The notes beneath the pieces were generated by a model. The model was not told the origin of the DNA and made no database searches. It saw only the letters and a list, made by a program, of their open reading frames with translations. From a virus: a stretch of 64,000 nucleotides of DNA. The position numbers and the translations under genes are program-made. Below, in pieces: positions 1,332-63,529 of the stretch; the stretch's first letter is position 1; every line of letters starts with the position of its first letter. The stretch covers positions 15,740 through 79,739 of IMG/VR virus record IMGVR_UViG_3300013101_000007; one strand, written 5' to 3'.

Positions 1332-1345
1332 TGCAATCAATTGCA
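1332..1345. repeat. Dispersed 14-bp palindrome, locus 1
   Basis: TGCAATCAATTGCA, intergenic. Confidence 0.9.
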
Positions 1346-1362
1346 ATTAGGAGATTTACAAA

Positions 1363-2361
1363 ATGAGTATTATTCAAAGTGAGTTGCTGTGGTACAAGGC
1401 CGTAGTTAATGACGACACTACCTCAAATGGTGGGCGCATGACCTCTGCTATTTCAATATCAGGGGTTAAAAATAATATATGGCCTGATGTTTCACAAGCA
1501 GAGAGAGTATCTGGTTCTACAAAGTATCGTAAAACTTTTATTAAGGTGGCTAACGATGATGATTTAATACTATTTGATTCTCGTATTTATGTAGAAACAT
1601 TTACTCCGGGTGATGATTCTATAGCTTTATTTTTAGGAACTCAGAGAGATACTCAGAATGATATAACTGGTAGTGAGCGATTGTATGGTTCTGGGCAATT
1701 AAGCGCAAGCCGTTTAATTGGTGATTCATTTATGGAAGTAGTAACTGAGGGTGCTTCTTTTGATATGTTTAAGCAGGGTGATTTAGTTAGGATTTCAGAT
1801 AAAGTTAATGTTGATGATTTAGTGGGTAATGAGGAATTTGTAACCATAGCCAATACACCTAGCTACACAGGTGATATTGTTGATTTCACTTTTTCACCTT
1901 CACTGGCTAATGCTTACACTAATACCTTAACAAGAGTAGCTTCAGTTATTGAGCATGGAGATATAGAAGGTTCAGTGGATGGCTATATTAAATCCTCAGT
2001 AAGTGGTACTTATGATGAAGTAGGTAATCCAGTTGAGGTAGATAGTATTGGTACAGTAGAAGAAACCATAACTATTACTTTTACTTCACCTACTGCTTAT
2101 GATGTTGTTGGGGATACTTTAGGCGCGTTAGGTTCTGGTAATATTAGTTCTGATTTTGCACCAAACAACCCAGACTTTAGTAAGCCTTATTTTATTTTAC
2201 GATTTGCTGGTTTTGCAGGTACGTGGGCAATCTCAGACAGTATTACTTTTGACACTCATCCTGCGGCTGTCCCAGTTTGGTACAAGCGTATTGTTCCAGC
2301 CGGTGCTAACTCTTTTGCGGGTAATAAAGTAATAGCGGCTATTGATGGCGAGAGTGCATAA
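1363..2361 (+). CDS. Virion structural (tail) protein
   Basis: AGGAG RBS; beta-rich S/T/G/D composition; tail module context. Confidence 0.6.
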   Translation: MSIIQSELLWYKAVVNDDTTSNGGRMTSAISISGVKNNIWPDVSQAERVSGSTKYRKTFIKVANDDDLILFDSRIYVETFTPGDDSIALFLGTQRDTQNDITGSERLYGSGQLSASRLIGDSFMEVVTEGASFDMFKQGDLVRISDKVNVDDLVGNEEFVTIANTPSYTGDIVDFTFSPSLANAYTNTLTRVASVIEHGDIEGSVDGYIKSSVSGTYDEVGNPVEVDSIGTVEETITITFTSPTAYDVVGDTLGALGSGNISSDFAPNNPDFSKPYFILRFAGFAGTWAISDSITFDTHPAAVPVWYKRIVPAGANSFAGNKVIAAIDGESA

Positions 2362-3266
2362 TGGCATTATCCCAAGCCGTACAGGTTAGATTTACTGACC
2401 CTGATAGTGGTTTAGAGGCCAATACTTTATTTATTGAAGAAAGGGCAACCGACAATAAAACCCCTTCTCAGTTATATAGAGAGGCTCAGACTTCTAGCGC
2501 GGCTCAAAGTGCATCTTGCTTGACTAAGACAGCCCAAGAAGAAAGTAATGTTTTGACGGCACAGCTTTGTCAGCAAGATATTGCGGCTTGGGGCGTAAGG
2601 AAACTACGGGTTTACCCTGCTGATATTATTCCAGAACTTCGTACAACGGTTGGGAGCATTAGAAGGTTAGGTGTTGGGGCTGATAATGTTTCTGAAGTAT
2701 TACAATTCTCAAATAGTAATGAAGCTAGTTTAAGATTTCCTGCTTCAGATATGAGTTTTGGTGATTCGACTTTTTATAATAAGGATGGTGACTTAATCAA
2801 TGTGAATTTTACCTTTGATGGCAACCGTAAAATTAAAGCTTCTGAATCTGGTTTTGGTTTGGTGTTTGTGAGCTACAATTCATCTTATAATATTGTTGAG
2901 TTATCAGTAAGTGCAACCGGTGGGGATATAGAAGCCTTTGTAATGGCAATATACAAGCCGTGGGGGGCTGCGGCTTCAACAACGGTACGTTATACACCGG
3001 TTGTGTGTGATACAGGCGTAGTGGCTGGCTGTGAAGCCATAGAGGAACTACCTGAAGAAGAACAAACACAAGTAGCATTTGATTCACATGTTTCTAACAA
3101 AAGCCCTACTGATGGCATTATTATACCTGAAAATATTATTTGGACAGAAAAATCAAGGCTAGAAGATACTGTAAATGTTAGTGGTGTAGATGTAGAAAGA
3201 TTTGTTAATGTTACTTTTAACGTTCCTAATGGTAACACGGTTACACTTAAATTTAATAGTCAGTAG
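2361..3266 (+). CDS. Putative tail protein
   Basis: Coupled (TAATG); segment EVLQFSNSNEASLRFPA resembles EFVEFSNESEGTLRFPP in 11535..12035. Confidence 0.5.
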   Translation: MALSQAVQVRFTDPDSGLEANTLFIEERATDNKTPSQLYREAQTSSAAQSASCLTKTAQEESNVLTAQLCQQDIAAWGVRKLRVYPADIIPELRTTVGSIRRLGVGADNVSEVLQFSNSNEASLRFPASDMSFGDSTFYNKDGDLINVNFTFDGNRKIKASESGFGLVFVSYNSSYNIVELSVSATGGDIEAFVMAIYKPWGAAASTTVRYTPVVCDTGVVAGCEAIEELPEEEQTQVAFDSHVSNKSPTDGIIIPENIIWTEKSRLEDTVNVSGVDVERFVNVTFNVPNGNTVTLKFNSQ

Positions 3267-3271
3267 ATACT

Positions 3272-4686: not shown

Positions 4687-7600
4687 ATGGCACTAACAAA
4701 GAACAATATAGTAAGAGATATATTCACTCAAGGCTTCAGCACACACATATCCAGTGCTATTAGAGGATTCTTTGATTTCAGTGAATCTTCTGGTGATTTT
4801 TTAATGACCACGCCTATTCCTGAGTTTGATGGAAATGCCTTAATATCTTTAACTCCTGTAGGTGGTGTTTCAAGGCAAGCGGCTGACCCTTTATTGCCTG
4901 TTGCTTTTTTAGGTAACGAGGTTCAATTAGATGGCGTTTCCGGCAGTCGATTAGATGTTACTTTTACTGAAACGTCTAATGTAAACAATGATAAACTTTT
5001 CAGTGTTATTGTAAAACTTGATGACCTTCTTACAGTGCAACCGATTTTTAGTTTCACGGGTGCTTCAAGTGCTACTTTAGGCGTGTACATTGATACTGAT
5101 GGAGTATTAAAACACGTATACTTTGATGGCGTGTCTACTTATACACCACTATCAGTACCAGCTAATGTGGCTGTACCTATTGTAGCCGGTGCTTATTTCT
5201 ACATTTCTGCTACCATTACTGATGATACTAACCAAGTAAGATTTTCTGTTATTTCTCTGGAATCAAGTAAGTCTTCTAGATTTACGGATAACTGGGGTAT
5301 GTCGGCAGGTGGTATCTTAGGAACTGATTGGGGTTCAGATGTGACCCTAGCGGCTATAGGAGAGCATACCGCTGATTATGGTACAGGTGTTGCCACGGAA
5401 TCATTTAAAGGCCGTATAAGTGCTTTCATGGTCTCAGAATTAGCTGATAATGGTTCTACGTTCAATGATGCTACCGATAATAGAACGCTCAAGGCATTAA
5501 TGGGCGCGGTTAGTATTTCTGATTTTGATTATGAAGAGCAGTTAGGACAAGAGTTAGGCGGTTCATTGGTTTATGATTATAACCTTGAGCCTTACATACC
5601 TCACACGGGTTCTAATCCTACTAATGCCCATGCACTTGAAAAAATCTCAGGTGATTCATGGTTGTTTACTGCTATACCAGTTTCATATAATTATGCTAAT
5701 AACAGTCAATTATTAGCACCAAAAAGACAAGCCTATATTGCATCCAATACCACGGCTGTTATTAATAATGTAACAAAGACTAATTTAGCAACATTAACTA
5801 CTAACTGGATAGCTCAAGTAGGTTTAGACTCTCAAACACCTCATAATGATTCTGCTTTAGAAGATTTTGGTATTCTTAGATTTGAAGATGACACCGGCCT
5901 GAAATATATTATTTTAGAAGTCAGAGGTGGTAGTTTATACCTTCGTGTTAAAGATGCCGGTGCTGAAGAAAGCTTTGGTGGTTTTAGTTTAGGTACTGTT
6001 AAGGGTATCAATCAATTTGTTGCCAGTATTTATGTTCGTGATGGAACAAACATAAGAGTACTTATATCAACTCCGGGCAGATCATCAACTTGGGTTAGCC
6101 GATATATTTTATTGAATGGTGCTTTAACAGCTGACTATAAATTGGTATCTATTGGTACAACTGGGGTTATTGATTCTGGTATTTTAAACACTCCTGCAAC
6201 TCAAGAATTAGCTATAGTTTCGCCTAGAGTATGGGATTTAACTACACCTCTTACTCTTAAACAGCAATATGATTTAGCCATGGCTTATAGTGGCGGCAAG
6301 CCCGATGCTGGAAGATATATTTATAAGAATAATTACACTATCCCTAATCCAATTATTTCGGATACAGAGAGGTATCCATTTATTCCTTTAAGTGGATTGC
6401 AATTGATTGCACTACCGAACTTAGGTAAGTTTGATTCATTACGATTTACTAAGGATGATGGCACTAATGTAGAAGTGTTTGAGGTTCTTAGAATAGAATC
6501 AAATGGAATTTATTTAAGACGCGGATTAGAAGGTACTACACCGGTAGCGTGGGTGGCTGGTGATTTAGAAAATCGCTTAACTGATGAAGCTTTAAATAAA
6601 CTTATTCGTTCCCACGTTAGGACTGAGGCTGCGGCTAGGGACAGTTCCCTTGTTATGCACATAAATCAGAAAATCGGTACTCCTCTTGATGAAGCCAGTG
6701 AGAGTTTTCCTTCAGTAAATTATTCTAAGACAGGGGCAACACTTAACGCTAGTTCCGGTACAGATAATGTGGGTAGGAATAATGTATCTTTAGGTAGAAA
6801 TTTATCTGTAATGGGTGATGACTCCGTAGTAATAGGTGGTAATAATATTTCTTATGGTGGGTACAATGTTTGTATCGGACTTAACAATTCTACTTTTGGT
6901 GGAGTAAGTGGTTACGGTGTTGCTATAGGCCATAACAATGAAAATAAAGCCGGTTACTCTACTTCACTAGGTTACGGCAACAATTGTACTGCTTCGGATA
7001 CTGCTAATAAGTCAGGTGGTGTTGCTATTGGGTATAACAACACGGCTAACGGTACTAATGGTTCTGATTATGGTGTTGCCATTGGGTACAGCAACTACGC
7101 TTCCGGTCAATCTTCAGTTTCTATAGGTGATGATACTGGTTCTTATGCTTATGCAACTGTAGCAATCGGAACTAATACTTATGTCCATGATAAGGGTGGT
7201 ATTGGTATTGGATATGATAACTACTGTAAAGGTATCTACTCTATAACAATTGGGTACGATAATTACAGTAATGGGAAGTCCAATATTCTTATAGGCTACG
7301 ACAATTACATATCTTCTGGTTATACTTATAGTGTTGTAATAGGACACGATAATTATTGTTATGGAAGTAGAAGCGTATTAATAGGGAAAGAAAACTACGC
7401 TGGTGAAGAAGGGGATTATAATGTACTTATTGGACACCAAAACTACGTTGGTGGTGGTGAGTACAATATATCTATTGGGTATGGTAATAGTACTTCATCT
7501 AGTTATTACTTTGTAGCTATTGGGTACAACATAGACAATACGGGTGATGAAGCCGTAGCTATTGGTTTTCAATGTACTGCTTCTGGGACTCGCGGCATTA

Positions 7601-9609: not shown

Positions 9610-11535
9610 ATGGCTATAAATGACAGTGTTATTAATTCTACCTTAATCGGGGCAACTCAGGAAACTGAAGGTACTTTTGTACCTGATGTAATCATTTCCG
9701 GTACTGTAAATAGTTCATCAATTAACTTTGGTTTAATTGGCTCTAATACAGTTATCGCTGGAAGTGGGGAAGTTACTGAGCCGGTTGCAGGTACGATTAA
9801 TAGCTCTGTCATTAACTTCGGTTTAATTAATTCATCCATTGCAGGTGAGGAGGTTGTAACCCCACCCGTAATAAGATTTAAAGTAAGTTCTCAACACGAA
9901 TCTGGCTTTTCTGATGTACCTAAAGTCACGGCTAATCATCAATCAGAATACTTCTTAGGTTCTTTCATCAAAGAGCAGAATGATGCTGGCTACGTTTTAG
10001 GTGAGACTGGTGTTCGTAGACAGCATGAGGCTAGTGCTGTTTTAAGAACTAGAGTTGCGGAAGGTGTACAGCATCAAGCCAGTAGTGCTTTGCGAGTAAC
10101 AAACCAACAAACGGGGGTGTATAGCACTAAAATAGGAGCATTTCATATTGCTCAAGTAATGTATACCGTAACTGCCAGTAATTCTATTTCTTACTCAATT
10201 AATGATAAAGTATCTAATCAATTGGATTCGGATTATGCAATAAAAGATACAAGTACTATAAGTAATCAACATGAATCCAGCACATTAATTAAAGTACAAG
10301 GACAAAATTCTATTGATTATTCTATTCGTGGGTTAGTAGTACAACAACACGAATCTACTTTTAATTTAAGAATAATCACTGTTAAACAGCATGAGTCTGG
10401 ATGGGAATTAAAAACCAGAAATTTTATAACTAACACTCATAAAGATATTTGGAATATAGGACAATCTACAGTAATTAATATTACAGATATTCCTTTTATA
10501 ATTTTACGAGGTGAAATTATAGAGATAATAGATGCTACGGTTTCACAAGATGAGGATGGTTATGCTTGGTTGGCTAATGTTACACTTGCGGATATTGCAG
10601 ACTATCAGAAATTTAATAGTAATGATGTTTTTACTCTTAATTTATTGGGTGAATTATTCGAGTTAATTGTTGATACTAAGGGGTTAAACAGAACAAATCC
10701 TGCCGCTGTTAGATTGTCCTTATCAGGATTATCCCCTACCGCTTTATTATCATCACCACGGGGCGAAAGGTTTACTAAGTTATGGGATGCACCGGTTTTA
10801 GCTAAAGATGCCGCTGAAGAGTTCTTAGGGGGCTTGACGATTGACTGGCAATTGATTAACTGGACAATACCAGCATTTGCTTTAGGTGTTACCAATGTAA
10901 CAGCTATGGAGATAGTGCAATTGATTGCAACGGCAGCTGGTGGGGTTGTGGAAACTAATACCGATGGTTCAATATTAGTAAGGCAGCGACATGCTGTAAG
11001 AGTACCTGATTATGATTCTTCAGCGGTTGACCAGATTTATACTGATGCTGAAGATAATATTTCTGTATTAGAAGGGCAATTATTTTCTAAGTCGATTAAT
11101 AAAGTGGCAATACATAATCAGAGTTCAAGTGCTGTTAATTCAGATACTATTCAATTTGAAAGTGATGAAGCAGACACCACTAAAGGTGTATTGATGGCTT
11201 ACCCAAGTCCATTTAGAGATATTACCATTACTCATACAGGCCCTTCATCCGTAGTACTCTCAAAGATAGGAGAAGTGCTTAGAACGGAAACCGAAATAAT
11301 TGAAATATTTGATGGTTCAGGCGGGGTTACTTTTCCTATACTTTCCATTGATTCAATAGATTGGTTGGAAGATGATTTAGGCGGCTTAACTTTTGATGGT
11401 AAAAAAGTTAATTCTACTGACCTTATAAATAAATTTAGTTTGGTTCAGATAACCTACACCACTAAAAGTATTAATTATGATGCTCAATATGTGGCAGATA
11501 CCAGAAAAATACAATTTTTAATGGAGACAGCATAA
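9610..11535 (+). CDS. Tail tip / baseplate hub-like structural protein
   Basis: N-terminal INSSxINFGLI repeats, multiple QHES repeats, hub-like C-terminal half; tail context. Confidence 0.55.
   Translation: MAINDSVINSTLIGATQETEGTFVPDVIISGTVNSSSINFGLIGSNTVIAGSGEVTEPVAGTINSSVINFGLINSSIAGEEVVTPPVIRFKVSSQHESGFSDVPKVTANHQSEYFLGSFIKEQNDAGYVLGETGVRRQHEASAVLRTRVAEGVQHQASSALRVTNQQTGVYSTKIGAFHIAQVMYTVTASNSISYSINDKVSNQLDSDYAIKDTSTISNQHESSTLIKVQGQNSIDYSIRGLVVQQHESTFNLRIITVKQHESGWELKTRNFITNTHKDIWNIGQSTVINITDIPFIILRGEIIEIIDATVSQDEDGYAWLANVTLADIADYQKFNSNDVFTLNLLGELFELIVDTKGLNRTNPAAVRLSLSGLSPTALLSSPRGERFTKLWDAPVLAKDAAEEFLGGLTIDWQLINWTIPAFALGVTNVTAMEIVQLIATAAGGVVETNTDGSILVRQRHAVRVPDYDSSAVDQIYTDAEDNISVLEGQLFSKSINKVAIHNQSSSAVNSDTIQFESDEADTTKGVLMAYPSPFRDITITHTGPSSVVLSKIGEVLRTETEIIEIFDGSGGVTFPILSIDSIDWLEDDLGGLTFDGKKVNSTDLINKFSLVQITYTTKSINYDAQYVADTRKIQFLMETA
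10916..10929. repeat. Dispersed palindrome, locus 3
   Basis: TGCAATTGATTGCA, in CDS. Confidence 0.9.
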
Positions 11536-12942: not shown

Positions 12943-12956
12943 TGAAATTGATTGCA
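12943..12956. repeat. Dispersed palindrome, locus 4 (1 mismatch)
   Basis: TGAAATTGATTGCA, intergenic. Confidence 0.8.
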
Positions 12957-18896: not shown

Positions 18897-18910
18897 TGCA
18901 ATCAATTGCA
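18897..18910. repeat. Dispersed palindrome, locus 5
   Basis: TGCAATCAATTGCA, intergenic. Confidence 0.9.
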
Positions 18911-20561: not shown

Positions 20562-20575
20562 TGCAATCAATTGCA
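20562..20575. repeat. Dispersed palindrome, locus 6
   Basis: TGCAATCAATTGCA at HNH start. Confidence 0.9.
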
Positions 20576-22507: not shown

Positions 22508-23050
22508 ATGAGTGAGTTAGAGAGAATGATAGGAACCACAGGCAATGATGATTATGCGGTTGTGGTGAAAACAGAGGACTATAAAATAGGGATGAAACCT
22601 ATATTTGATTCTGCCCACAGCCAAACCTTTGTTGGTATGCGAATCAGACTTGTAGCTACTAAAGATAATGAGGATGTTGTGGACTTCGACCCTGAAGCTA
22701 AGTTGAAAAGTTTTTTTCCAAGTATACCGTGGCAACAAACTGGAGCAGACCGTTTATCATTAGTTGGCGGGTGTGTGGTCAATATACCTCAAAATAGCCC
22801 TGTTGCATTACACGGATGGCTTAGACAGGAAAAAATAATTGATAATTTGCTGGATAAACTTAAATCATTATTTGATCTGAAACTGGAAAACAAAAAGGAA
22901 TTAAAAAAATTCTACATGGATGTTTTTTGTACCGCTTATAAGAAGCCCATTAAACAACCTAAAATAACTAATGGTAGTGCGGTGGTTAATTTGGGTGACT
23001 ATAAGGATAAATTACAATCTGGGGACATTGAATATATAGAGGAAGAGTAA
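22508..23050 (+). CDS. Hypothetical protein
   Basis: GGAG RBS, own promoter. Confidence 0.6.
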   Translation: MSELERMIGTTGNDDYAVVVKTEDYKIGMKPIFDSAHSQTFVGMRIRLVATKDNEDVVDFDPEAKLKSFFPSIPWQQTGADRLSLVGGCVVNIPQNSPVALHGWLRQEKIIDNLLDKLKSLFDLKLENKKELKKFYMDVFCTAYKKPIKQPKITNGSAVVNLGDYKDKLQSGDIEYIEEE

Positions 23051-24093
23051 TGGTGGCTCTTTCACCAAACCAGAAACTTATGATACTGAGTGGAAAGGAT
23101 GCCCTCATAGCCAGAATAGAACATGTTAAGTTAACTGGTGATATTCATGCCGCTGTGGTTTTGGGGCGGTTGATATTTAGTTACTCCTATTTTTTAGAAA
23201 AACATGGTAAAGATTCCTTTTACAAAACTAATGAGGAATTAAAAAATGAGTGTATGGCTAGTTCTTCTCAATTAAGACGGATAAAAACCATACTCAATAC
23301 CCTACCTTTTTTGACAATAAAAAAGAAGGGGATACCGGCTAAGAATTGGTACACTTTTAATGCAGATGCTTACTATAAGTCTTTAGAGAAATTGGTTGAT
23401 GACCACTCTACAAGTGGTGCGGAAACAGACACCTCCAGTAGTGTCGAAAACAACACCACTGGTAGTGACGAAAACAACACCACTATTACAGAGAATACTA
23501 AAGAGAATACATCAGAGAATACTAAAGAGAAGGTTTCCTCTACGAGCAAACAACCCAAGAACCCCGAAATTAAAAAAGTAACCTTCGGGAAAGGTAAAAA
23601 AGGAGATAACATAGGTAAAAGCAAATTAAGCATTATGAAAGGAAAAGGTAATTATTCCGTAATGCAAAGCTACACTGAATTTGCAGAGGTAGCTAATGAA
23701 TATACCACTGAGGAATTAATAGAGGAATTCGAGACTCTTGAATATACCAATGCTAGGGTTTCGGATTTCTGGCGTAAATGTATGAGGATTAATTACCATG
23801 AGGAGTTAAAACTGATACCTTCCCTTAGTGGGGTTAATAAAAAGAGATTATGGAGGGTTATGGCTACCATAGAGGCCGACCACTACAAGACCCTTGGTAT
23901 CCTTATCAAAGATTGGGTTTCATTCACTGAGCATTGCGAGGTTAAGTTTTCTGCTTTTAAATCGCCTCACACTCCAATGCTTGCGTATCTGGATAAATAC
24001 ATTGATGCCATACCCAGTTTTTCAGGGGATACGATACCTACAGCTTCAAAAGGCCATACGGGTAAAACTTCATCATGGGAGGATGATGATTGA
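23050..24093 (+). CDS. Replication initiator-like protein (lambda O/DnaD-type winged helix)
   Basis: N-terminal wHTH pattern FYKTNEEL..E...S..QLRRIK..L....KKGIPAKNWY; internal DNA repeats; upstream of DnaC-like and DnaB. Confidence 0.7.
   Translation: MVALSPNQKLMILSGKDALIARIEHVKLTGDIHAAVVLGRLIFSYSYFLEKHGKDSFYKTNEELKNECMASSSQLRRIKTILNTLPFLTIKKKGIPAKNWYTFNADAYYKSLEKLVDDHSTSGAETDTSSSVENNTTGSDENNTTITENTKENTSENTKEKVSSTSKQPKNPEIKKVTFGKGKKGDNIGKSKLSIMKGKGNYSVMQSYTEFAEVANEYTTEELIEEFETLEYTNARVSDFWRKCMRINYHEELKLIPSLSGVNKKRLWRVMATIEADHYKTLGILIKDWVSFTEHCEVKFSAFKSPHTPMLAYLDKYIDAIPSFSGDTIPTASKGHTGKTSSWEDDD
23413..23531 (+). repeat. Iteron-like repeats (putative origin) inside initiator gene
   Basis: Three 24-bp units (consensus AGTAGTGxCGAAAACAACACCACT) then four 12-bp-period AGAGAA(TAC) units. 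Confidence 0.6.
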
Positions 24094-24104
24094 AATTGAT
24101 TGCA
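24091..24104. repeat. Dispersed palindrome, locus 7 (1 mismatch)
   Basis: TGAAATTGATTGCA overlapping stop codon. Confidence 0.8.
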
Positions 24105-26131: not shown

Positions 26132-26145
26132 TGCAACCAATTGCA
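26132..26145. repeat. Dispersed palindrome, locus 8
   Basis: TGCAACCAATTGCA upstream of promoter. Confidence 0.85.
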
Positions 26146-30194: not shown

Positions 30195-30680
30195 ATGCCA
30201 GTCAAAGTAAAAAAAATCACGGATAAAAAACCCTTCAAGAAGTGGTACGATGATAATAAAAAAGACTTCAATGAACAGCGTAGGGATAGATACCGGACTG
30301 ACCCAGAGTACAGAAAACGTGTGCAAGAAAATAACGCTAAGAATTCAAATAGAAAAAAGAAAAATCTACCTACCATGGATGAGTATGAATCTGTGCCTCT
30401 TGAAATGGAGGGCGGTATTATTCTTGAATGTTACAGTATTAAAGATGCTTGTGAGATTATAGGTAGGGGGAAGCAAACTATACGCCTATGGACAAAAAAC
30501 AAAGATATACCAGATGTATCGGTTGTGGATGAAGAGGGCATAAAGTATTACACCGACACTCAAATAAATCTACTAATTGATTTTGCAGATATTAGAAGGG
30601 GTTTGAGTGGGGCTACCATAAATGCCAATGCAGATTTAGCAAAGGCTTCAAAAATAGTGTTCACTAATTGGGAGAAATAA
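30195..30680 (+). CDS. MerR/excisionase-type HTH DNA-binding protein
   Basis: YSIKDACEIIGRGKQTIRLW....IP.......YYTDTQI. Confidence 0.7.
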   Translation: MPVKVKKITDKKPFKKWYDDNKKDFNEQRRDRYRTDPEYRKRVQENNAKNSNRKKKNLPTMDEYESVPLEMEGGIILECYSIKDACEIIGRGKQTIRLWTKNKDIPDVSVVDEEGIKYYTDTQINLLIDFADIRRGLSGATINANADLAKASKIVFTNWEK

Positions 30681-31173: not shown

Positions 31174-31187
31174 TGCAATCAATTGCA
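31174..31187. repeat. Dispersed palindrome, locus 9
   Basis: TGCAATCAATTGCA upstream of recA. Confidence 0.9.
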
Positions 31188-34803: not shown

Positions 34804-35360
34804 GAATACTAGGCTTAGATACTTCAACTAAGACAGGTGTATCTATTCTGGAATATGACCCAGAAATTAATATCATTGATAACTTGTATAAGGATGAATG
34901 GTACTTTGCAAAGCTAAAAGGTATGCCACGGTTGAAAGCTTTTGCAGATAAGCTTTACGAGTTGCTTGATGAATACGAGCCTGATTTTTGCATTATAGAA
35001 GGTTATGGTTTTGCAAACAAACATACATTGGTTACATTGGTTGAGGTAGGTACTGTAATGAAGTACACCTTACACCTATACCGAGTACCTATATTAGATG
35101 TACCACCAACTTCATTAAAAAAATTTGTATCTGGTAAAGGTAATGTAAAAAAAGATGTTATGATGTTGGAAGCATACAAGAGGTGGCAGTTTGAGGGCAC
35201 TGATAACGAAGTCGATGCTTTTTGTTTAGCTCAGTTTGGTATGGGATTATTAGGATTAGTTAAAGTTCCCAAGACCAATGAGAGCGCATTATCTGAATGG
35301 AAAAAGAAGCACCTTGACGATGTTAAGCTAGTGCAATTGATTGCAAATAATGAAAAATAA
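34800..35360 (+). CDS. ruvC: RuvC-like Holliday junction resolvase
   Basis: ILGLDTS, IIEGY, EVG, LKKFVSGKGN..K, DNEVDAFCLA. Confidence 0.85.
   Translation: MRILGLDTSTKTGVSILEYDPEINIIDNLYKDEWYFAKLKGMPRLKAFADKLYELLDEYEPDFCIIEGYGFANKHTLVTLVEVGTVMKYTLHLYRVPILDVPPTSLKKFVSGKGNVKKDVMMLEAYKRWQFEGTDNEVDAFCLAQFGMGLLGLVKVPKTNESALSEWKKKHLDDVKLVQLIANNEK
35332..35345. repeat. Dispersed palindrome, locus 10
   Basis: TGCAATTGATTGCA in ruvC 3' end. Confidence 0.9.
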
Positions 35361-35606: not shown

Positions 35607-36458
35607 ATGGCTACAACAGCGAAAAAAACAACCACGGCTTCTAAATTAGCAGCCGGTAACAAAAAACCCGTAACTAAAGCAAAAACAACAACCAAAACCG
35701 CAACTAAAGCAAAAACGGTTGACCTTATTACAGATACCGCGCATAAATTAGAAAATTTAACTAAATCTAAAGCTTATGCAATGGTGGACAAACTGGCACA
35801 AGAAATGGATTTTTCTTACTTCCAGTTAGGTGGTGTTTTATCTGTTATTCAATCAAACGGTTGGTACTCAGATGAAGGACACGAAACGTTTAAATCCTTC
35901 ATTGAAGCTGAACATGGCATTGGGTACAGAAAGGCTATGTACATGGTTGGCATTTATAACGGCTTGGTTGAAGCAAATGTTCCTTGGGCTAAAGTTGAAT
36001 GTTTGGGCTGGTCTAAACTTAAAGAACTTTGTGATACCTTGACAGAGGATAATGTGGATGAATGGGTTGAAATTGCTAAAGATATGACAGTGATTCAATT
36101 ACAGGCCTACATTAAAGAACAGAATAAAGGTTCAACTTCCACAGATGATGACAGTGATGCACCTGATGAGGATGATGTTGCTGATTCTAAGAAATTATCT
36201 ACTTTGACTTTCAAGGTACATGATGACCAAAAAGAAATTATCAATGATGCTGTGGATAAAGCGAAAAATGACGCTGACACAGAATTCGCTAACGTGGCTT
36301 TGGAATCAATCTGCATGGCTTATTTGGCGGGTGGTAAACCTTCTAAAGCTAAACCAAAATCATTACAGGCCACTATGAAAGCATCATCATGGGAAGAGGT
36401 ACTGGATATATTTGAAAAATTGTGGCCTGATGTGATTCTGACCGCTGAAGTTCAATAA
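35607..36458 (+). CDS. Putative DNA-binding protein with Lys/Ala/Thr-rich N-terminus
   Basis: GGAG RBS before ATG 35607; histone-H1-like KTTTKTATKAK; helical core. Confidence 0.55.
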   Translation: MATTAKKTTTASKLAAGNKKPVTKAKTTTKTATKAKTVDLITDTAHKLENLTKSKAYAMVDKLAQEMDFSYFQLGGVLSVIQSNGWYSDEGHETFKSFIEAEHGIGYRKAMYMVGIYNGLVEANVPWAKVECLGWSKLKELCDTLTEDNVDEWVEIAKDMTVIQLQAYIKEQNKGSTSTDDDSDAPDEDDVADSKKLSTLTFKVHDDQKEIINDAVDKAKNDADTEFANVALESICMAYLAGGKPSKAKPKSLQATMKASSWEEVLDIFEKLWPDVILTAEVQ

Positions 36459-40498: not shown

Positions 40499-40522
40499 TG
40501 CAATTGATTGCAATTGATTGCA
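40499..40522. repeat. Dispersed palindrome, locus 11 (overlapping double copy)
   Basis: TGCAATTGATTGCAATTGATTGCA. Confidence 0.9.
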
Positions 40523-40813: not shown

Positions 40814-41419
40814 ATGAAAATAAAAAATACCACCTTATCTAGCCTGAAACCCTCGCCCAGCAACGTCCGCGTACATTCTGACGAACAAATTAACTCAGTA
40901 GTTGCCAGTATGGAAGAGTTCGGATATACGAACCCTATCTTAGTGGATGAGGACAATAATATACTGGCGGGGCACTGTCGATATGAAGCACTAACCCGAA
41001 TGGAGATTGAGAAGGTAAAAGTTTTAGTAGTGGCTGGATTATCAGATATTCAAAAACGTGCTTACATGTTGGCTGATAATAAATTAGCAATGAATTCTGA
41101 TTGGGATGTAGAGGCATTAAATGAAGAACTGTTGGCCTTGCAAGAATCAGATGAAATAGATTTTGATTTACTTGGATTCAATGAGCAGGATATGGCAGAC
41201 ATTGAAGAAGAGTTGTTAGCGTTAGCCGAAGCCGCTGAACTTGATGAAAGTGGATTTAAACCAGAAATAAACCCTTCATCAAAAGACTACAAAGAAGTGG
41301 ATGGTGACGACTTAGATAAAACAGCCGAGGCTTTGGGTAGTAAGTTTGATAGTACTGAAGAAGAAACGGTTGAAGTAGTATGCCCTCATTGTGCTGAAAC
41401 ATTTTTAGTGAGACTATAA
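40814..41419 (+). CDS. ParB/Srx N-terminal domain protein with C-terminal CPxC
   Basis: N.R.HS..QI..SMEEFGYTNPILVD....LAGHCRYEAL...LADNK. Confidence 0.88.
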   Translation: MKIKNTTLSSLKPSPSNVRVHSDEQINSVVASMEEFGYTNPILVDEDNNILAGHCRYEALTRMEIEKVKVLVVAGLSDIQKRAYMLADNKLAMNSDWDVEALNEELLALQESDEIDFDLLGFNEQDMADIEEELLALAEAAELDESGFKPEINPSSKDYKEVDGDDLDKTAEALGSKFDSTEEETVEVVCPHCAETFLVRL

Positions 41420-43303: not shown

Positions 43304-43961
43304 AGATGATTTTGTTTATGCCTTGAGGGAGTTTATCCATACTGAAATCTCAATAAGAAAGCACCAGCCGGTTGATTTAATCCGGTGGGTGGATATAGGT
43401 AAGGTAAAGCCAAACGATTACAACCCTAATAGCGTGGCTACGGTTGAATTGAAGCTATTGCATACATCCGTAAAGGCAGATGGTTATACGCAGCCTATAG
43501 TGACGATATACGATGAAGAGAACGATGAGTATATTATTGTTGATGGCTTTCATAGATACTTCACTATGTTGAATAATGCAGATATTACTGAAATGACCCT
43601 AGACAAGTTGCCGGTGGTGGTTATTAATTCTAAAATTAATGATCGTATGGCTTCAACTGTCAGGCATAATCGGGCAAGAGGTAAACACTCAATTAATGGA
43701 ATGTCTAACATGGTTTTTAATATGTTGGAGAATGGTTGGGAGGATGCCCAGATATGTAATGAGTTGGGTATGGAAGCCGAAGAGTTACTGAAGTTAAAAC
43801 ATATAACTGGCTTCTCAAAATTATTCGAGAATATTGATTATGCTAAAGCATGGGAAACGAAAAAACAACTTCAGTTAAAAAAGAAGTATCGGGATGAAAA
43901 CCCAGTGCAACCAATTGCAAAAAAGAAAGGCGTTACCATTGTTAGAAAGGGTAAGAAGTAA
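43242..43961 (+). CDS. ParB-like partner (IbrB/YbdM)
   Basis: PVD..WV....PNDYNPN.VA, DGYTQPIV, IVDGFHR, RMASTVRHNRARGKH. Confidence 0.88.
   Translation: MNLNKKLKDVIKAASNSAKNKDDFVYALREFIHTEISIRKHQPVDLIRWVDIGKVKPNDYNPNSVATVELKLLHTSVKADGYTQPIVTIYDEENDEYIIVDGFHRYFTMLNNADITEMTLDKLPVVVINSKINDRMASTVRHNRARGKHSINGMSNMVFNMLENGWEDAQICNELGMEAEELLKLKHITGFSKLFENIDYAKAWETKKQLQLKKKYRDENPVQPIAKKKGVTIVRKGKK
43906..43919. repeat. Dispersed palindrome, locus 12
   Basis: TGCAACCAATTGCA in IbrB-like CDS. Confidence 0.85.
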
Positions 43962-47213: not shown

Positions 47214-47227
47214 TGCAATCAATTGCA
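47214..47227. repeat. Dispersed palindrome, locus 13
   Basis: TGCAATCAATTGCA after terL. Confidence 0.9.
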
Positions 47228-50845: not shown

Positions 50846-51295
50846 ATGACTACAATGATGCAAGCAATGTTGGATGCTGGAGTAGAGCAACCAAAAGTAG
50901 GAACTGTTATGTGTAAGTATTGTGGTGGAAGAGCCGCACTTGTAACCGGAAAAAAGATATACCCTCATAGATCGGATTTATTCAAACTGAACTTCTATGA
51001 GTGTGAACCTTGTGATGCTAGGGTGGGTTGTCACAAAGACAGTGAAGAACCGTTAGGGGAATTAGCCAATTCTGAATTACGTGGGTGGAGGATACAAGCA
51101 CATAATGCCTTTGACCCTATATGGAAGAAAAAAGAAATGTCCAGAAATAAAGCGTATGCTTGGTTACGAGGTGCAACCGGTTTATCTGTTCATCAATGTC
51201 ACATAGGTTCAATGGATAAAGAATTGTGTAAGCTGGTAATAAAGTGCTGTAAAAACCGGTGCAATCAATTGCAATGCAACAAAGGTACACAGTAA
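50846..51295 (+). CDS. DUF3268-like zinc-finger protein
   Basis: CKYCG...CEPCDARVGCH...PLG.LAN..LR..R..AH..FD.IWK...AY.WL...CHIG. Confidence 0.75.
   Translation: MTTMMQAMLDAGVEQPKVGTVMCKYCGGRAALVTGKKIYPHRSDLFKLNFYECEPCDARVGCHKDSEEPLGELANSELRGWRIQAHNAFDPIWKKKEMSRNKAYAWLRGATGLSVHQCHIGSMDKELCKLVIKCCKNRCNQLQCNKGTQ
51260..51273. repeat. Dispersed palindrome, locus 14
   Basis: TGCAATCAATTGCA in CDS. Confidence 0.9.
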
Positions 51296-51909
51296 TGAAT
51301 AAAAAAATAAACTGCAAACATAATGACCGTGGCGCGTGGTGTACTTGCACTAAAGTTAAAAAATCTATATTTGGGTTAGGTGCAAGATTATGCACTGAGT
51401 ATTATGAATCAGATAATACTTGTGAGTTTCAAGTAAAACATCCACGACCAAAAGCACCACCTCCACCACCTTTACCTTTTAATATCCAAACCCCATTAGT
51501 CCCTAGAATGAAAGAAGTAAAAGTATGTTCTAAGATGTGTGATGATTGTCCTTTTTCTAAGAAGTCTATAAGAGGATTTCTGGCAACATATACCATTGAC
51601 CAGATACAGCAATACATTACCTCAAGTGTATTTTTTGTTTGTCATAAGTATATCAAGGCAGACATGGACAATGATAGCTGTATGAAAGCCGTATTGAATG
51701 GTGAGTTGCCGATGTGTAGAGGGTATATGGAATGTATGGTAAAAAGTGCTATCGTGCCTAGAAACGCAGATTTGGCGGTTATTCGATCAGTAATAAAACA
51801 TGAGTTATCTGATGATAGTATGAGTATGATGGAATTCAGACAACACCATGACCTTTTGTATAGCCCAAAACCTTTTAATCCACCGGTAAAAAAAGATGAC
51901 AGAGAATAG
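51295..51909 (+). CDS. Cys-rich protein
   Basis: CDDCPFS...FVCHK...CRGY; poly-Pro linker. Confidence 0.55.
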   Translation: MNKKINCKHNDRGAWCTCTKVKKSIFGLGARLCTEYYESDNTCEFQVKHPRPKAPPPPPLPFNIQTPLVPRMKEVKVCSKMCDDCPFSKKSIRGFLATYTIDQIQQYITSSVFFVCHKYIKADMDNDSCMKAVLNGELPMCRGYMECMVKSAIVPRNADLAVIRSVIKHELSDDSMSMMEFRQHHDLLYSPKPFNPPVKKDDRE

Positions 51910-53584: not shown

Positions 53585-53949
53585 TAAGTAATCCAGCAAC
53601 ATTTTTTATTGATGGCAATAAAGAATTAGCCTTTGAATATGAAGGTGGAAATGTTTTATACCATTTTTCAACCCGTGATAGTGGTCTTAGTATAAATATT
53701 GATATTAATGTAATATTTTTTGCCAATGACAAAGATCATGCTAAAGAGGTATTAGGTAGAATGTTATCCTTCAAATTGGGTTGCCTGACTACATACCGAA
53801 AACAAGACCCCGAAAAAAACAAAGTTGAAACCGATACCAGAATTGACCGAGTAACTGAATATCTTGAGCGCATGGCAGAATGGAAAATAACACTTGCACC
53901 TAGAAACCAGATGTATATTGTAGGATGGGCAGCTAATGATATTCTCTAA
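53581..53949 (+). CDS. Hypothetical protein
   Basis: ATGA overlap. Confidence 0.55.
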   Translation: MISNPATFFIDGNKELAFEYEGGNVLYHFSTRDSGLSINIDINVIFFANDKDHAKEVLGRMLSFKLGCLTTYRKQDPEKNKVETDTRIDRVTEYLERMAEWKITLAPRNQMYIVGWAANDIL

Positions 53950-54523
53950 AGATGATATTCACTATCAATTAGTTAAAAGCGTGTATAAGTTACGTGTAGC
54001 CAAAAGAACAGGCAGACTCTACATAGATCATATCAATGAAGGTTTAATCGTCTTAGACGCGCTCTCAGCCACTACAATAAGTAAACAGGCGTTCTGTTTA
54101 CATCCACTATTGCAAAGTGATAAAGAATTGCACAGGATGCTTCAATATAATCCAGATTTATTACTAAATTGCAGTCCAGTGTCAATAATAATTGCAATGG
54201 AGTACCGACAACACTTAAACAGGTTTTCCTCACAAACTGTAATTAATGCCAGAAGGAAAATATTAATTAGTTCACTAAAAAAGGTGATGGAAGAAACCCC
54301 CTATTTACGACCAATGGCAATAGCAGATAAAGTTCAGAATAGAAAAGATTTTCTTGCTTTCCATAAAGGTACTCACCCACGGTCTAAAGAATTGGATTAC
54401 TATTTTCAAACATGGCTCTATGATATACTTGAGGTTGATGAGGATAAGTACCAGCGTTTAGCCGGTGCAATTGATTGCAATAAGGCTACCAGTGAAAAAG
54501 ATAATAGAGGAAATGGGTTATAA
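53936..54523 (+). CDS. HD-fold-like phage protein
   Basis: YIDHINEG...LHPLLQSD...IADKVQN pattern reminiscent of HD/RelA-hydrolase-like fold. Confidence 0.45.
   Translation: MIFSKDDIHYQLVKSVYKLRVAKRTGRLYIDHINEGLIVLDALSATTISKQAFCLHPLLQSDKELHRMLQYNPDLLLNCSPVSIIIAMEYRQHLNRFSSQTVINARRKILISSLKKVMEETPYLRPMAIADKVQNRKDFLAFHKGTHPRSKELDYYFQTWLYDILEVDEDKYQRLAGAIDCNKATSEKDNRGNGL
54466..54479. repeat. Dispersed palindrome, locus 15
   Basis: TGCAATTGATTGCA in CDS. Confidence 0.9.
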
Positions 54524-57099: not shown

Positions 57100-57296
57100 T
57101 GATAAACGGTAAGGATTCGGGATTAATTGAGACTGTTTATGAGTGGGCTAAACAGTATTGGGATAAACGCGCCACAGTAACCGGCTTTAAAATTAAATTG
57201 CAACCAATTGCACAAAGTCTGGATGTTGAGTTAATAAAAAGACAATCGGCTATAAGTAAACGCTTGGCTGGTAATGAAATTAAATTTGACAATTAA
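57084..57296 (+). CDS. Hypothetical protein
   Basis: AAGGA RBS. Confidence 0.45.
   Translation: MQYRVMINGKDSGLIETVYEWAKQYWDKRATVTGFKIKLQPIAQSLDVELIKRQSAISKRLAGNEIKFDN
57199..57212. repeat. Dispersed palindrome, locus 16
   Basis: TGCAACCAATTGCA in CDS. Confidence 0.85.
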
Positions 57297-59667: not shown

Positions 59668-59970
59668 ATGACCAATGAACAAACCGCTGTTATGTTGCAA
59701 TTGATTGCAAACAATTTACGGGACGCTATAAGTGAAGCAGATATGGAACTGGAGAATGTACCTAGACAACAAATAAAAACGTATATTGGTAATCCTTTGA
59801 AAGTAGGACTTATACCACCTTCAGAAAAAGAAAGACCAGAGTTGTATCTAATTACAGAAGGTGATGTAATGGCACTTATGCCACTTCGACAAGTATTGAA
59901 TGGTATGGAAAATCATATAAATGGGTTACTACTAGAGCATCCACCTAGACCAATGGCAGAACGGAAATGA
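59668..59970 (+). CDS. Hypothetical protein
   Basis: AGGAG RBS. Confidence 0.55.
   Translation: MTNEQTAVMLQLIANNLRDAISEADMELENVPRQQIKTYIGNPLKVGLIPPSEKERPELYLITEGDVMALMPLRQVLNGMENHINGLLLEHPPRPMAERK
59696..59709. repeat. Dispersed palindrome, locus 17
   Basis: TGCAATTGATTGCA in CDS. Confidence 0.9.
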
Positions 59971-62283: not shown

Positions 62284-62480
62284 TTATTGAGAACCGCACC
62301 GGGAGGCCAATACTTGAAATACTTTCTCATGTAGAACAAGTATTGGTTATGGGTAGAATAAGTAAAAATGATACCCAGTATTGTTATGCTACTAAGTTTG
62401 ATGATGATATTATTGTCTATGCAAGTAAGAACAAACAATCAGATAAATTTGTAGTTTCTAATTATAAAAAAATAGGATAG
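62268..62480 (+). CDS. Hypothetical protein
   Basis: GRISK...QYCYAT motif. Confidence 0.55.
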   Translation: MPEKLIIENRTGRPILEILSHVEQVLVMGRISKNDTQYCYATKFDDDIIVYASKNKQSDKFVVSNYKKIG

Positions 62481-62482
62481 TT

Positions 62483-63418
62483 ATGTATAAAACAGAAGTA
62501 GAAGGTGCGGGTGGCATCTATGCAAAAGTAGTTGAACACTCAAGTAATCCACTATACCCAGATGTACCGGATATTTTTACCCTTGAGTTAAAATACCACC
62601 GGTTTATTCATGCAGAATTTATGACTCATAGAGTATTCAGTCGGAACGCTTCAAGTAGTCGGGCTGTTCCAGTGAAACGAGTATTGTCTAATGTAAACAA
62701 TGAACCGGCAATGCCTATTCATTGGGGGCAAAACCAAGCTGGTATGCAAGCCGGTGCAGAAATAGATGCCCCTGTGTTTGTTATGGGGAGACACTACTCA
62801 CCACAAGAAGCATGGGAATTGGCAGGTAAGGACAAAGCCATATTTGCCGAGGCGTTCAATGAAGCCGGCTACCATAAACAAGTAGTAAACCGATTAACTG
62901 AATCACATCAATTTATTAAAGTGGTAGTGACTGCAACGGAATGGGCTAACTTCTTTAGTCTGAGAATACATCCTGATGCACAACCAGAAATACAAGAGCT
63001 GGCAAACTGTATGCGTTCAGCAATGAATTTCAGTGTACCAGAACGGCCTGCAAATGGAATGATGAATAAAAATGGTGATGATGTTTATACTCACCTACCT
63101 TATTTACAGTCCATAGATTACGATATGTACTACCATGGCGATTTATCCTTAGATCAGCTTTGTGCAATATCTTCAGGACGTTGTGCTAGAGTATCTTATT
63201 TAAACCATGATAACTCACAACCAGATTACCATAAGGATATTCAACTACATGATGATTTGGCTAAAGTACGGCACATGAGCCCATTTGAGCATGTAGCTAA
63301 AATCATGCTGGATGCTGACCCAGAAACACCACCAATAGGAGCAACCCATAGAGACTTAGATGGGCGGTGGTGGTCTGGTAATTTCAGACAATGGGCACAG
63401 TATAGACAGCTCATGTAA
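62483..63418 (+). CDS. thyX: Flavin-dependent thymidylate synthase ThyX
   Basis: HAEFMTHRVFSRNASSSRA, FFSLR...AQPEI..LA, ARVSY, HMSPFEH. Confidence 0.9.
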   Translation: MYKTEVEGAGGIYAKVVEHSSNPLYPDVPDIFTLELKYHRFIHAEFMTHRVFSRNASSSRAVPVKRVLSNVNNEPAMPIHWGQNQAGMQAGAEIDAPVFVMGRHYSPQEAWELAGKDKAIFAEAFNEAGYHKQVVNRLTESHQFIKVVVTATEWANFFSLRIHPDAQPEIQELANCMRSAMNFSVPERPANGMMNKNGDDVYTHLPYLQSIDYDMYYHGDLSLDQLCAISSGRCARVSYLNHDNSQPDYHKDIQLHDDLAKVRHMSPFEHVAKIMLDADPETPPIGATHRDLDGRWWSGNFRQWAQYRQLM

Positions 63419-63515
63419 TTCGTTTTTGTTTCTCTGGTATAGTACCAGTGTTCTCGTAGCGGTATCGCAACCCTTACAGTAGTAACAACCCCTGACCAGA
63501 GAAACAATTTAATAG

Positions 63516-63529
63516 TGCAATCAATTGCA
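63516..63529. repeat. Dispersed palindrome, locus 18
   Basis: TGCAATCAATTGCA upstream of promoter. Confidence 0.9.

What the first reader, a model, noticed from the sequence alone, without database searches (positions are those of the whole stretch)
1332..63529. Genome-wide lattice of a 14-bp palindrome TGCAAT-CA-ATTGCA, one every ~1.7-6 kb
Seen: 19 copies at 18 loci (1332, 6398, 10916, 12943, 18897, 20562, 24091, 26132, 31174, 35332, 40499+40509, 43906, 47214, 51260, 54466, 57199, 59696, 63516), at most 1 mismatch, in both orientations. No gap I found exceeds ~6 kb, and late, replication and early modules all carry sites. Eight lie inside CDSs and are read in different frames (LQLIA, VQLIA, VQPIA, LQPIA, CNQLQ, AIDC), so selection acts on the DNA rather than the protein. 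Only some sit near promoters (26132, 35332, 47214, 63516). Inference: binding sites for a dimeric protein that coats or organises the whole genome. Analogies are parS/matS/SlmA-type sites or mycobacteriophage stoperators; alternatives are loading sites for the ParB-domain modification machinery or marks for packaging, ejection or self-recognition. Candidate binders are the two ParB proteins (40814, 43242), the HTH protein (30195) and 35607.
Basis: partly seen in the sequence, partly recalled or inferred. Interest (0 to 1): 0.88.

Follow-up and report, generated by a model that had tools for sequence, protein, structure and literature searches.

The report
Genome-wide palindrome array in phages
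This phage and a whole family of relatives, including cultured Stenotrophomonas and Vibrio phages, keep one 14-letter DNA palindrome every 2-3 kb along the genome, most likely as docking sites for an unannotated phage protein with a ParB-like DNA-binding fold, so an unexplained kind of phage genome organisation can now be tested in the laboratory.

Summary
TGCAATCAATTGCA (at most 1 mismatch) occurs 19 times in the window and 24 times in the 79.7-kb record, against 0.04 expected. Spacing is far more even than random.

The same word, or a lineage-specific 6+2+6 palindrome of the same build, forms an array in dozens of distantly related ~80-120-kb siphophages. Their GC runs from 35 to 66% and core proteins are 25-55% identical. 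Cultured members include Stenotrophomonas phage DLP5 and, in degenerate form, Vibrio phages SIO-2 and VHS1.

Selection acts on the DNA. In GC-rich relatives nearly every QLIA or QSIA peptide is spelled with the motif's rare codons. Some intragenic sites sit at the same codon in proteins only ~30% identical.

ParB_N proteins and the MerR-like HTH protein are each missing from complete array-bearing genomes. The best candidate reader is the product of 35607-36458. It is a universal core protein with no Pfam match and a ParB/KorB-type DNA-binding fold plus an RHH-like domain. A site lies just upstream of its gene in 54% of loci. Binding and function are inferred, not shown.

No paper searched describes the array. 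This scan has noted analogous arrays, with other words, in other phages.

The parts
1332..1345 (.). array site, exact; intergenic, directly after the stop at 1331 and 17 bp before the ATG at 1363
6398..6411 (.). array site, exact; mid-gene in the 1253-aa tail-fibre-like ORF 4687-8448
10916..10929 (.). array site, exact; inside the 641-aa ORF 9610-11535
12943..12956 (.). array site, 1 mismatch (TGAAAT arm); intergenic, 13 bp before the ATG at 12970
18897..18910 (.). array site, exact; 3 bp after the stop at 18893
20562..20575 (.). array site, exact; intergenic, upstream of ORF 20571-21224 and the AAA ATPase gene
24091..24104 (.). array site, 1 mismatch; overlaps the stop of 23050-24093, 56 bp upstream of the first gene of the replication module (24161). 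A site upstream of this gene recurs in 7 of 10 related loci.
26132..26145 (.). array site, 1 mismatch (TGCAAC arm); directly after the DnaB stop, 13 bp upstream of the -35 of a sigma70-like promoter at 26159
31174..31187 (.). array site, exact; between the 163-aa core protein gene and the RecA-like gene (ATG 31202)
35332..35345 (.). array site, exact; in the last codons of the RuvC-like gene, 27 bp upstream of the -35 (35373) of the promoter that drives a 43-codon ORF and the candidate reader gene. Proposed autoregulatory operator.
35607..36458 (+). candidate reader gene ('p307'; the ORF is also open from TTG 35535). Predicted parts: Lys/Thr/Ala-rich disordered N-terminal tail, a helical HTH domain with a ParB/KorB-type DNA-binding fold, an acidic linker, an RHH-like domain and a small C-terminal domain.
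40499..40522 (.). two overlapping exact sites offset by 10 bp, giving three TGCA blocks one helical turn apart; 4 bp after the stop at 40494, at the head of a 319-bp intergenic region
43906..43919 (.). array site, 1 mismatch; near the 3' end of the IbrB-like ParB_N gene 43236-43961
47214..47227 (.). array site, exact; 7 bp after the large-terminase stop, 22 bp upstream of the promoter -35 at 47250
51260..51273 (.). array site, exact; at the junction of ORFs 50846-51295 and 51259-51909
54466..54479 (.). array site, exact; near the 3' end of ORF 53936-54523
57199..57212 (.). array site, 1 mismatch; 73 bp upstream of the promoter -35 at 57286
59696..59709 (.). array site, exact; codon 12 of ORF 59668-59970
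63516..63529 (.). array site, exact; 12 bp upstream of the promoter -35 at 63542
30195..30680 (+). MerR_1/HTH_17 protein (phrog_19880), considered as reader and disfavoured
40814..41419 (+). ParB_N protein (201 aa), considered as reader and disfavoured

Best explanation
The 14-bp quasi-palindromes are specific binding sites on double-stranded DNA for a phage-encoded dimeric protein. Selection acting on the DNA keeps them as an evenly spaced array over the whole chromosome.

The most likely reader is the product of 35607-36458. It is a universal core protein of this phage family. Its model combines a basic disordered tail, a ParB/KorB-type helix-turn-helix DNA-binding domain without the ParB N-terminal CTPase domain, and an RHH-like domain.

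Inferred mechanism: each half of a dimer reads one TGCAAT arm. The two TGCA blocks lie one helical turn apart, across a flexible pyrimidine-purine centre. One site just upstream of the protein's own promoter would give autoregulation. The remaining sites, one every 2-3 kb, would nucleate protein along the entire genome, to organise or compact it and/or to modulate transcription and replication units at gene boundaries.

Shown here: the array, its evenness, selection at the DNA level, conservation across the clade, and co-varying arms.

Inferred: that a protein binds, that it is this protein (about 45%), and what the array achieves (open).
For: Real and non-random.

Selection on DNA: QLIA/QSIA peptides are encoded by the motif codons in 14/14 cases in G007 (62% GC; expected fraction 0.0004), 21/21 in G001 and 10/12 in G000. 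The same codon position is occupied in a tail gene in 5 genomes at ~30% aa identity. This also holds in the pre-tape-measure gene, the SF2 helicase and RuvC.

Clade-wide: there are 26-52 copies in ~95-kb relatives that share almost no nucleotide similarity with G000 and have 55-62% GC. They share a syntenic core proteome. DLP5 has 35 copies.

Palindromy kept through change: the variants found are TGCAAC, TGCACT, TGCAGA, GGCAAT, CGCAAT, TCCAAT, TGAAAT, TGACAT, TGAACC and CGCACG. All are 6+2+6, and the centre is mostly CA/TG/TA/CG.

RecA-bearing outgroup phages without the clade's core genes have no array.

The hairpin is only -2.5 kcal/mol, with z about -1.2.

- It is present in 12 of 12 genomes.
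- Its AF2 model has mean pLDDT 82.
- Residues 66-180 align to ParB-parS, KorB, Spo0J, SopB, P1 ParB and VirB DNA-binding domains, with VIA Z 6.9-4.5. Foldseek gives probability 0.66 for ParB and 0.44 for the Noc DNA-binding domain.
- Residues 195-243 match RHH domains.
- A site lies within 200 bp upstream of its ORF in 26 of 48 loci. Other module genes score 0-23% apart from p189 (7 of 10), and about 9% is expected. This holds in every motif class.
- Residue 139 is Arg whenever arm position 5 is C, and residue 162 is Arg or Lys whenever position 6 is C. One case (L381) was predicted before the motif was looked up.
Against: No binding data exist.

The fold matches are middling (Z<8), and Rubisco factor Raf1 scores as high. 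There is no sequence-level link to ParB or KorB.

The covariation does not discriminate. The same test on control proteins also gives 0-2 perfect-split columns each for SSB, primase, HJR and exonuclease, because few independent lineages carry variant motifs.

K109T occurs in a TGCAAT lineage, L288.

Some clade members with this protein show no clear array in the ~20 kb examined.

A site upstream of the gene could merely mark an operon boundary. The first replication gene shows the same pattern in 7 of 10 loci.

The DLP3 ortholog (gp62) was not among the proteins detected in ghost particles.
Confidence: 0.45

Rival explanations
1. The reader is another phage protein that I did not identify, for example a small fast-evolving RHH/HTH protein or a domain of the universal AAA ATPase. 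The array still works as a genome-wide docking lattice.
For: Evidence for the 35607 product is indirect. The covariation control is not discriminating. Many small ORFs were never analysed, because ORFs under 60 aa were excluded.
Against: No other universal core protein has a recognisable sequence-specific DNA-binding fold. The 163-aa universal protein has no such fold.
Confidence: 0.15
2. The MerR-like HTH protein (30195-30680) reads the sites.
For: It is a Pfam HTH (MerR_1/HTH_17) and a PHROG 'transcriptional regulator'. It is present in 11 of 12 genomes, next to the recombination genes.
Against: It is absent at the syntenic place and from the whole 100-kb complete genome G015, which has 14 perfect TGCAAC-TA-GTTGCA sites. 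It is also absent in L288 and L293, which carry arrays. Its recognition helix varies freely among genomes with the identical motif. No site lies upstream of its gene in any of 41 loci.
Confidence: 0.1
3. ParB_N-domain proteins (40814-41419, 43236-43961) load at the sites as parS-like CTP-dependent clamps.
For: ParB-family proteins bind 14-16-bp palindromes. ParB_N genes sit near the terminase in many array-bearing relatives. DLP5 is a phagemid prophage.
Against: There is no ParB_N anywhere in SIO-2, 1.215.A, VHS1 or VA-RY-4. There is none in the complete genomes G011 (28 perfect sites) and G012. The IbrA/IbrB pair is not conserved in the clade. No ParA-type ATPase is found in this record. The 201-aa protein has only the N-terminal domain recognised by Pfam.
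Confidence: 0.07
4. The sites are targets of a sequence-specific DNA enzyme of the recombination or packaging machinery, such as a junction resolvase, nickase or topoisomerase. Branched or concatemeric DNA could then be processed within a limited distance of any point.
For: Even spacing with a capped maximum gap. The genome encodes RecA, a RuvC-like protein, a second resolvase, a Cas4-like exonuclease and helicases. Each TGCAAT arm contains ATTG, which matches the RuvC cleavage preference (A/T)TT(G/C); that preference is from my own knowledge.
Against: Variant arrays such as TGCAGA-CA-TCTGCA and TGCACG-CG-CGTGCA lose ATTG. Junction resolution does not need a palindrome. RuvC is not found in G008, which has the array. 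Symmetric nicks in a palindrome would break the genome.
Confidence: 0.1
5. The sites are operators of a conserved host transcription factor or nucleoid protein. The word resembles LacI/PurR/CytR-type operators; that resemblance is from memory only.
For: The build is a 14-bp palindrome with a central pyrimidine-purine step. 5 of ~16 strong promoters in this phage have a site 12-73 bp upstream of the -35.
Against: The identical word is used by phages from 37 to 62% GC whose hosts include Stenotrophomonas, with the degenerate TA-centred form in Vibrio phages. Meanwhile, similarly related phages use different arms. Most sites are not at promoters, and many are intragenic.
Confidence: 0.05
6. The element acts as a nucleic-acid structure (RNA or ssDNA hairpin, terminator or processing site), or it is a selfish mini-repeat.
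For: Compensatory changes in both arms would also preserve a stem. All genes are on one strand, so every site is transcribed.
Against: The stem is 5 bp with a 4-nt loop, at -2.5 kcal/mol and z about -1.2. No T-run follows. Recurrent variants break the stem (ATTTCA). Positions 6 and 9 stay complementary although they would lie in the loop. The flanks are not conserved.
Confidence: 0.04

Closest known systems
17-bp dyad repeat of Cluster O mycobacteriophages (5'-TGTTCGGNNNCCGAACA; Cresawn et al. 2015, PMC4351075)
   Same: It has more than 30 near-invariant palindromic copies spread through a ~70-kb siphophage genome. They lie between genes, near gene ends, or inside genes. No function or reader is known, and a ParB-like gene is present.
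   Different: The word and build differ (7+3+7 against 6+2+6). The host phylum differs. It was described in five closely related phages, whereas the array here spans a family-level clade with almost no nucleotide similarity, shows arm variants that change together, and has a candidate reader.
KorB-OB network of plasmid RK2 (PMC11790492)
   Same: A ParB-family DNA-binding domain reads a short palindromic operator, from which KorB represses promoters kilobases away. That the operator is present at multiple dispersed places on the replicon, and that KorB autoregulates, is from my own knowledge. The KorB DNA-binding domain is among the best fold matches to the candidate reader.
   Different: KorB has the N-terminal CTPase domain and works as a CTP-dependent sliding clamp locked by KorA. 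The candidate here has no ParB_N domain, carries an RHH-like domain, and has 24-52 sites instead of about a dozen (the KorB number is from my own knowledge).
ParB-parS, Noc-NBS, SlmA-SBS and MatP-matS chromosome-organising sites
   Same: All are 12-16-bp palindromes bound by dimers at many chromosomal places to organise DNA (own knowledge). ParB and Noc DNA-binding domains match the candidate's fold.
   Different: No ParA is found. There is no CTPase domain in the candidate, and ParB_N is dispensable across the clade. The sites are not clustered near an origin and not excluded from any region; they are evenly spread over a virus genome.
Stoperators of Cluster A mycobacteriophages
   Same: There are tens of copies of a 13-14-bp repressor site across a phage genome, including within transcribed regions (own knowledge).
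   Different: Stoperators are asymmetric, oriented with transcription, and diversify with immunity groups. Here the sites are symmetric, show no orientation bias in this genome (12:12), and use the same word in phages as far apart as 30% TerL identity. No integrase is found.

Membership tests
   The candidate reader has no Pfam match. ParB_N proteins exist in this genome, but PF02195 is absent from complete array-bearing relatives.
ParABS partition system (ParB-parS) | A partner ParA-type Walker ATPase | tested here: not met
   PF13614 and PF01656 are not found in the 79.7-kb record, which is 89% complete.
ParABS partition system (ParB-parS) | A ParB-type HTH DNA-binding domain reading a palindrome | tested here: inconclusive
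   Fold matches to ParB, KorB, Spo0J, SopB and VirB DNA-binding domains reach Z 4.5-6.9, below the level that excludes a common helical arrangement. There is no sequence similarity.
KorB-type global regulator with dispersed operators | A CTP-dependent clamp (N-terminal domain) and a clamp-locking partner (KorA or TrbA) | tested here: not met
   The candidate has no ParB_N domain. A partner was not searched for.
KorB-type global regulator with dispersed operators | An operator upstream of the regulator's own operon (autoregulation) | tested here: met
   A site lies 27 bp upstream of the -35 of the promoter that precedes 35607. A site lies within 200 bp upstream of the ortholog in 26 of 48 loci.
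Cluster A stoperators | An asymmetric site oriented with the direction of transcription | tested here: not met
   The arms are symmetric. Orientation of the CA/TG centre is 12:12 in this genome. The 2:1 bias in relatives is explained by the coding frame.
Cluster A stoperators | The sites bind the immunity repressor of a temperate phage | not testable with these tools
   No integrase is found. DLP5 is a phagemid prophage. No repressor is assigned in this genome.
Cluster O-type dispersed dyad repeat (descriptive class; function unknown) | Tens of near-invariant short palindromes spread through a siphophage genome, at gene boundaries and inside genes | tested here: met
   compared with PMC4351075.
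Intrinsic terminator or RNA hairpin | A stable stem-loop, followed by a T-run in the case of a terminator | tested here: not met
   -2.5 kcal/mol with z about -1.2. No T-run in the flanks.
Oriented self-marking words (Chi, KOPS, DNA uptake sequences) | An asymmetric word with strand or orientation bias | tested here: not met
   The word is palindromic and shows no orientation bias.

The most novel reading that the evidence does not exclude
A large, unannotated family of phage proteins (at least 1,200 clusters at 50% identity) with a ParB-like DNA-binding fold but no CTPase domain coats or marks the whole phage chromosome from an evenly spaced lattice of palindromes. This would be a virus-encoded 'chromatin' or self-identity system. 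Its sites and reader co-evolve, and it is needed for a core step such as recombination-dependent replication, episome maintenance or protection of phage DNA, rather than for ordinary promoter control.
Probability: 0.2. Interest if true: 0.9.

Novelty: new variant of a known kind. Interest (0 to 1): 0.74.

Why it matters
Dispersed palindromes in phage genomes have been reported once in detail, for Cluster O mycobacteriophages, and were left unexplained.

Here the same kind of array is a deeply conserved trait of a whole family of abundant environmental and clinical-host phages. It is maintained against codon usage across a 30-point GC range, and the two arms change together between lineages. 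That pattern means a sequence reader is under strong selection.

The work also nominates a specific gene without annotation, and it points to cultured phages in which the idea can be tested at once: DLP5 and DLP3 of Stenotrophomonas, and SIO-2 and VHS1 of Vibrio.

It would bear on phagemid maintenance, pseudolysogeny and the engineering of these phages.

Tried and rejected
- Literature: no paper holds the 14-mer or its cores in a phage context. The DLP5 and DLP3 papers do not mention the repeat.
- ParB_N as universal reader: rejected by its absence from complete genomes.
- HTH161 as universal reader: rejected by its absence in G015 and by its variable recognition helix.
- The 163-aa universal protein: the model is beta-hairpins plus one long helix, with no fold match. 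It gives no evidence either way; its position next to RecA suggests a recombination mediator.
- Small terminase (44764-45372): it has no detectable homolog even in relatives with the identical motif, so it is an unlikely reader.
- ESM Atlas for the candidate: only unnamed phage clusters. The leads to DUF1016/ParB-HTH and DUF3102 scored 0.83, which is chance level.
- Sequence searches of the candidate against PDB and Pfam: nothing.
It cannot give full host-genome statistics.
- DLP3 virion proteomics: the ortholog gp62 is not listed. Ghost particles had lost their DNA, so this says little.


Full report
**1. Observation.** TGCAATCAATTGCA with at most one mismatch occurs 19 times in the window, at exactly the coordinates given. 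Dinucleotide shuffles give 0.04. The window is the 3' 64 kb of a 79,739-bp IMG/VR virus record, estimated 89% complete. The whole record has 24 sites: 18 exact, 6 with one mismatch and none with two, so the word is sharply defined. The arms are always 2 bp apart and the centre is always CA/TG. All genes lie on one strand.

**2. Spacing and placement.** Gaps run from 1.7 to 6.0 kb, apart from one overlapping pair. The gap CV is 0.41 against 0.94 for random placement (P<5e-5). The largest gap is smaller than expected (P=0.0014). Four relatives behave the same way, with CV 0.55-0.63. Sites prefer gene boundaries: the median distance to an ORF end is 28 bp against 142 bp at random, and 18 of 24 lie within 60 bp. 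The mid-gene sites lie in the long tail genes, where no boundary is available. This points to two constraints: put the site where it costs least, and never leave a long stretch without one.

**3. A clade-wide trait.** An exact-word scan of IMG/VR found many contigs with several copies. Whole records hold 26-52 copies per ~95 kb. These genomes have 55-62% GC against 37.6% here and share almost no nucleotide similarity with this record. They do share about 25-30 syntenic core proteins at 25-55% identity. These include DNA polymerase A, portal, protease, capsid, DnaB, primase, an SSB-like protein, SF2 helicase, RecA, two resolvases, a Cas4-like exonuclease and large terminase.
- Cultured members are Stenotrophomonas phage DLP5 with 35 sites. 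It is a phagemid prophage with heavily modified DNA (PMC5834331).
- The Vibrio phages SIO-2, VHS1 and 1.215.A also belong. They carry a degenerate form with a TA centre and one well-kept arm (TTAATTGCA), 20-29 times per 81 kb.
- The most distant member, G008 (TerL about 30% identical), uses the same word, so it is probably ancestral.

**4. Selection is on the DNA.** In one reading frame the word encodes x-Q-(L/S)-I-A. In G007 (62% GC) all 14 QLIA/QSIA peptides use the motif's rare codons, where codon usage predicts a fraction of 0.0004. The counts are 21/21 in G001, 19/22 in G002 and 10/12 here. Several intragenic sites occupy the same codon in orthologs that are only ~30% identical: a tail gene in 5 genomes, the pre-tape-measure protein in 3, the SF2 helicase in 4 and RuvC in 3. 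The frame preference, and the 2:1 orientation bias in relatives, follow from the other frames meeting a TGA stop or a Cys codon.

**5. Variants keep the architecture.** Some lineages carry arrays of TGCAAC-TA-GTTGCA (G015), TGCAGA-CA-TCTGCA (G011, 28 perfect copies) or GCACT-TA-AGTGC (G014). Others carry GGCAAT, CGCAAT, TCCAAT, TGAAAT, TGACAT, TGAACC-CG or CGCACG-CG. Both arms always change together, the 6+2+6 build stays, and the centre is mostly a pyrimidine-purine step. The two outer TGCA blocks lie one helical turn apart, and the tandem site at 40499-40522 adds a third block in phase. As RNA the word folds at only -2.5 kcal/mol. Recurrent variants break the would-be stem. Positions that would lie in the loop stay complementary. 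This is the signature of a symmetric dimer on duplex DNA, not of a hairpin. Phages that share only a RecA homolog have no array.

**6. Who reads it.**
- ParB_N proteins are excluded as a universal reader. PF02195 is absent from SIO-2, 1.215.A, VHS1 and VA-RY-4. It is also absent from the complete genomes G011 and G012.
- The MerR-like HTH protein is absent from complete G015, where the helicase gene abuts the next core gene. It is absent in other array-bearing loci. Its recognition helix varies freely among genomes with the identical word. No site lies upstream of its gene in any of 41 loci.
- The product of 35607-36458 is found in all 12 genomes compared. It has no Pfam, PDB or source annotation. 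It belongs to a large family, with 1,202 clusters at E<=1e-30.
- Its AlphaFold model (pLDDT 82) shows a disordered Lys/Thr/Ala-rich tail. Residues 66-180 form a helical domain whose best structural neighbours are the DNA-binding domains of ParB-parS, KorB, Spo0J, SopB, P1 ParB and VirB (Z 6.9-4.5; Foldseek ParB 0.66 and Noc 0.44). Residues 195-243 form an RHH-like domain.
- In this genome the site at 35332 lies 27 bp upstream of the -35 of a near-consensus promoter that drives a 43-codon ORF and this gene.
- Across the clade a site lies within 200 bp upstream of the ortholog in 26 of 48 loci. Most neighbouring genes score 0-23%, and 9% is expected. This holds whatever the motif class. Only the first replication gene is similar, at 7 of 10.

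**7. Covariation.** An unbiased column scan put residue 139 first for arm position 5: Arg when C, Lys or Ser when A, Ala when G. It put residue 162 first for position 6: Arg or Lys when C. One Arg-139 lineage was predicted to carry C5 and does. The same test on control proteins also yields occasional perfect splits, because variant lineages are few. I therefore count this as weak support only.

**8. Function.** Only 5 of about 16 copies of the phage's 36-bp promoter have a site nearby, and many sites are intragenic. The array is therefore not simply a promoter element. No ParA or integrase is present. Even coverage, boundary preference and probable autoregulation fit a protein that nucleates along the whole chromosome, to organise it and perhaps to modulate transcription or replication units. 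Which of these it does is open.

**9. Comparison and novelty.** The closest description is the 17-bp dyad repeat of Cluster O mycobacteriophages, whose function is unknown (PMC4351075). The closest mechanism is KorB and its OB operators on RK2 (PMC11790492), but without the CTPase clamp. No searched paper reports this array. Other notes of this scan describe analogous evenly spaced palindromes, with other words, in other phages. The same array was also noted from an overlapping window of this genome.

Noticed in passing
window 20479, 26159, 27914, 35373, 47250, 48100, 48977, 52093, 54693, 55187, 57286, 63542 (also upstream of the window): About 16 copies of a near-identical ~36-bp sigma70-like promoter (TTGACAAT..N..TATAAT followed by GAAGCTCA). 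Many are followed by a conserved leader, ACGGATTAAAC (12 copies). They are concentrated in the small-gene region at 47-64 kb.
   Followed up: partly
L316 (IMGVR_UViG_3300035562_000082), whole locus: A clade member carries a second, different evenly spaced word, GTTGATCA(AC). It occurs 15 times in 21 kb, about every 2 kb, alongside GCAAT-NN-ATTGC sites. Two arrays can therefore coexist in one genome.
   Followed up: no
L237, whole locus: Besides TGCACG-CG-CGTGCA, this relative has a second palindrome, GTGGTA-N4-TACCAC, 5 times in 17 kb.
   Followed up: no
window 30681-31172: A universal 120-160-aa protein is encoded immediately upstream of RecA in every clade member. It has a conserved start M-(P/G)-(V/I)-K-(I/F), a Lys-rich linker, and a C-terminal beta-hairpin-plus-helix domain with no fold match. 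Its position suggests a RecA mediator.
   Followed up: partly
window 42086-44761: A PAPS-reductase/DUF3440 (IbrA-like) gene, a ParB_N (IbrB-like) gene and a glycosyltransferase sit just upstream of the terminase genes. They are not conserved in the GC-rich relatives.
   Followed up: no
L511 (Comamonas testosteroni SWCO2 scaffold KZ984448.1) and L512 (Paraburkholderia elongata): Bacterial assemblies with 4 and 2 exact sites within 6-8 kb. These are probably prophage or phagemid relatives, which points to betaproteobacterial hosts for part of the clade.
   Followed up: no
whole record (G000): The identical candidate-reader protein is on record on a 90,215-bp contig. The complete genome is therefore probably about 90 kb, and the 79.7-kb record lacks about 10 kb.
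   Followed up: no
L434, L435: Distant relatives (candidate reader ~27-33% identical) have TGCAAC-GG/CC-GTTGCA arrays. This is the only class whose centre is not a pyrimidine-purine step.
   Followed up: no
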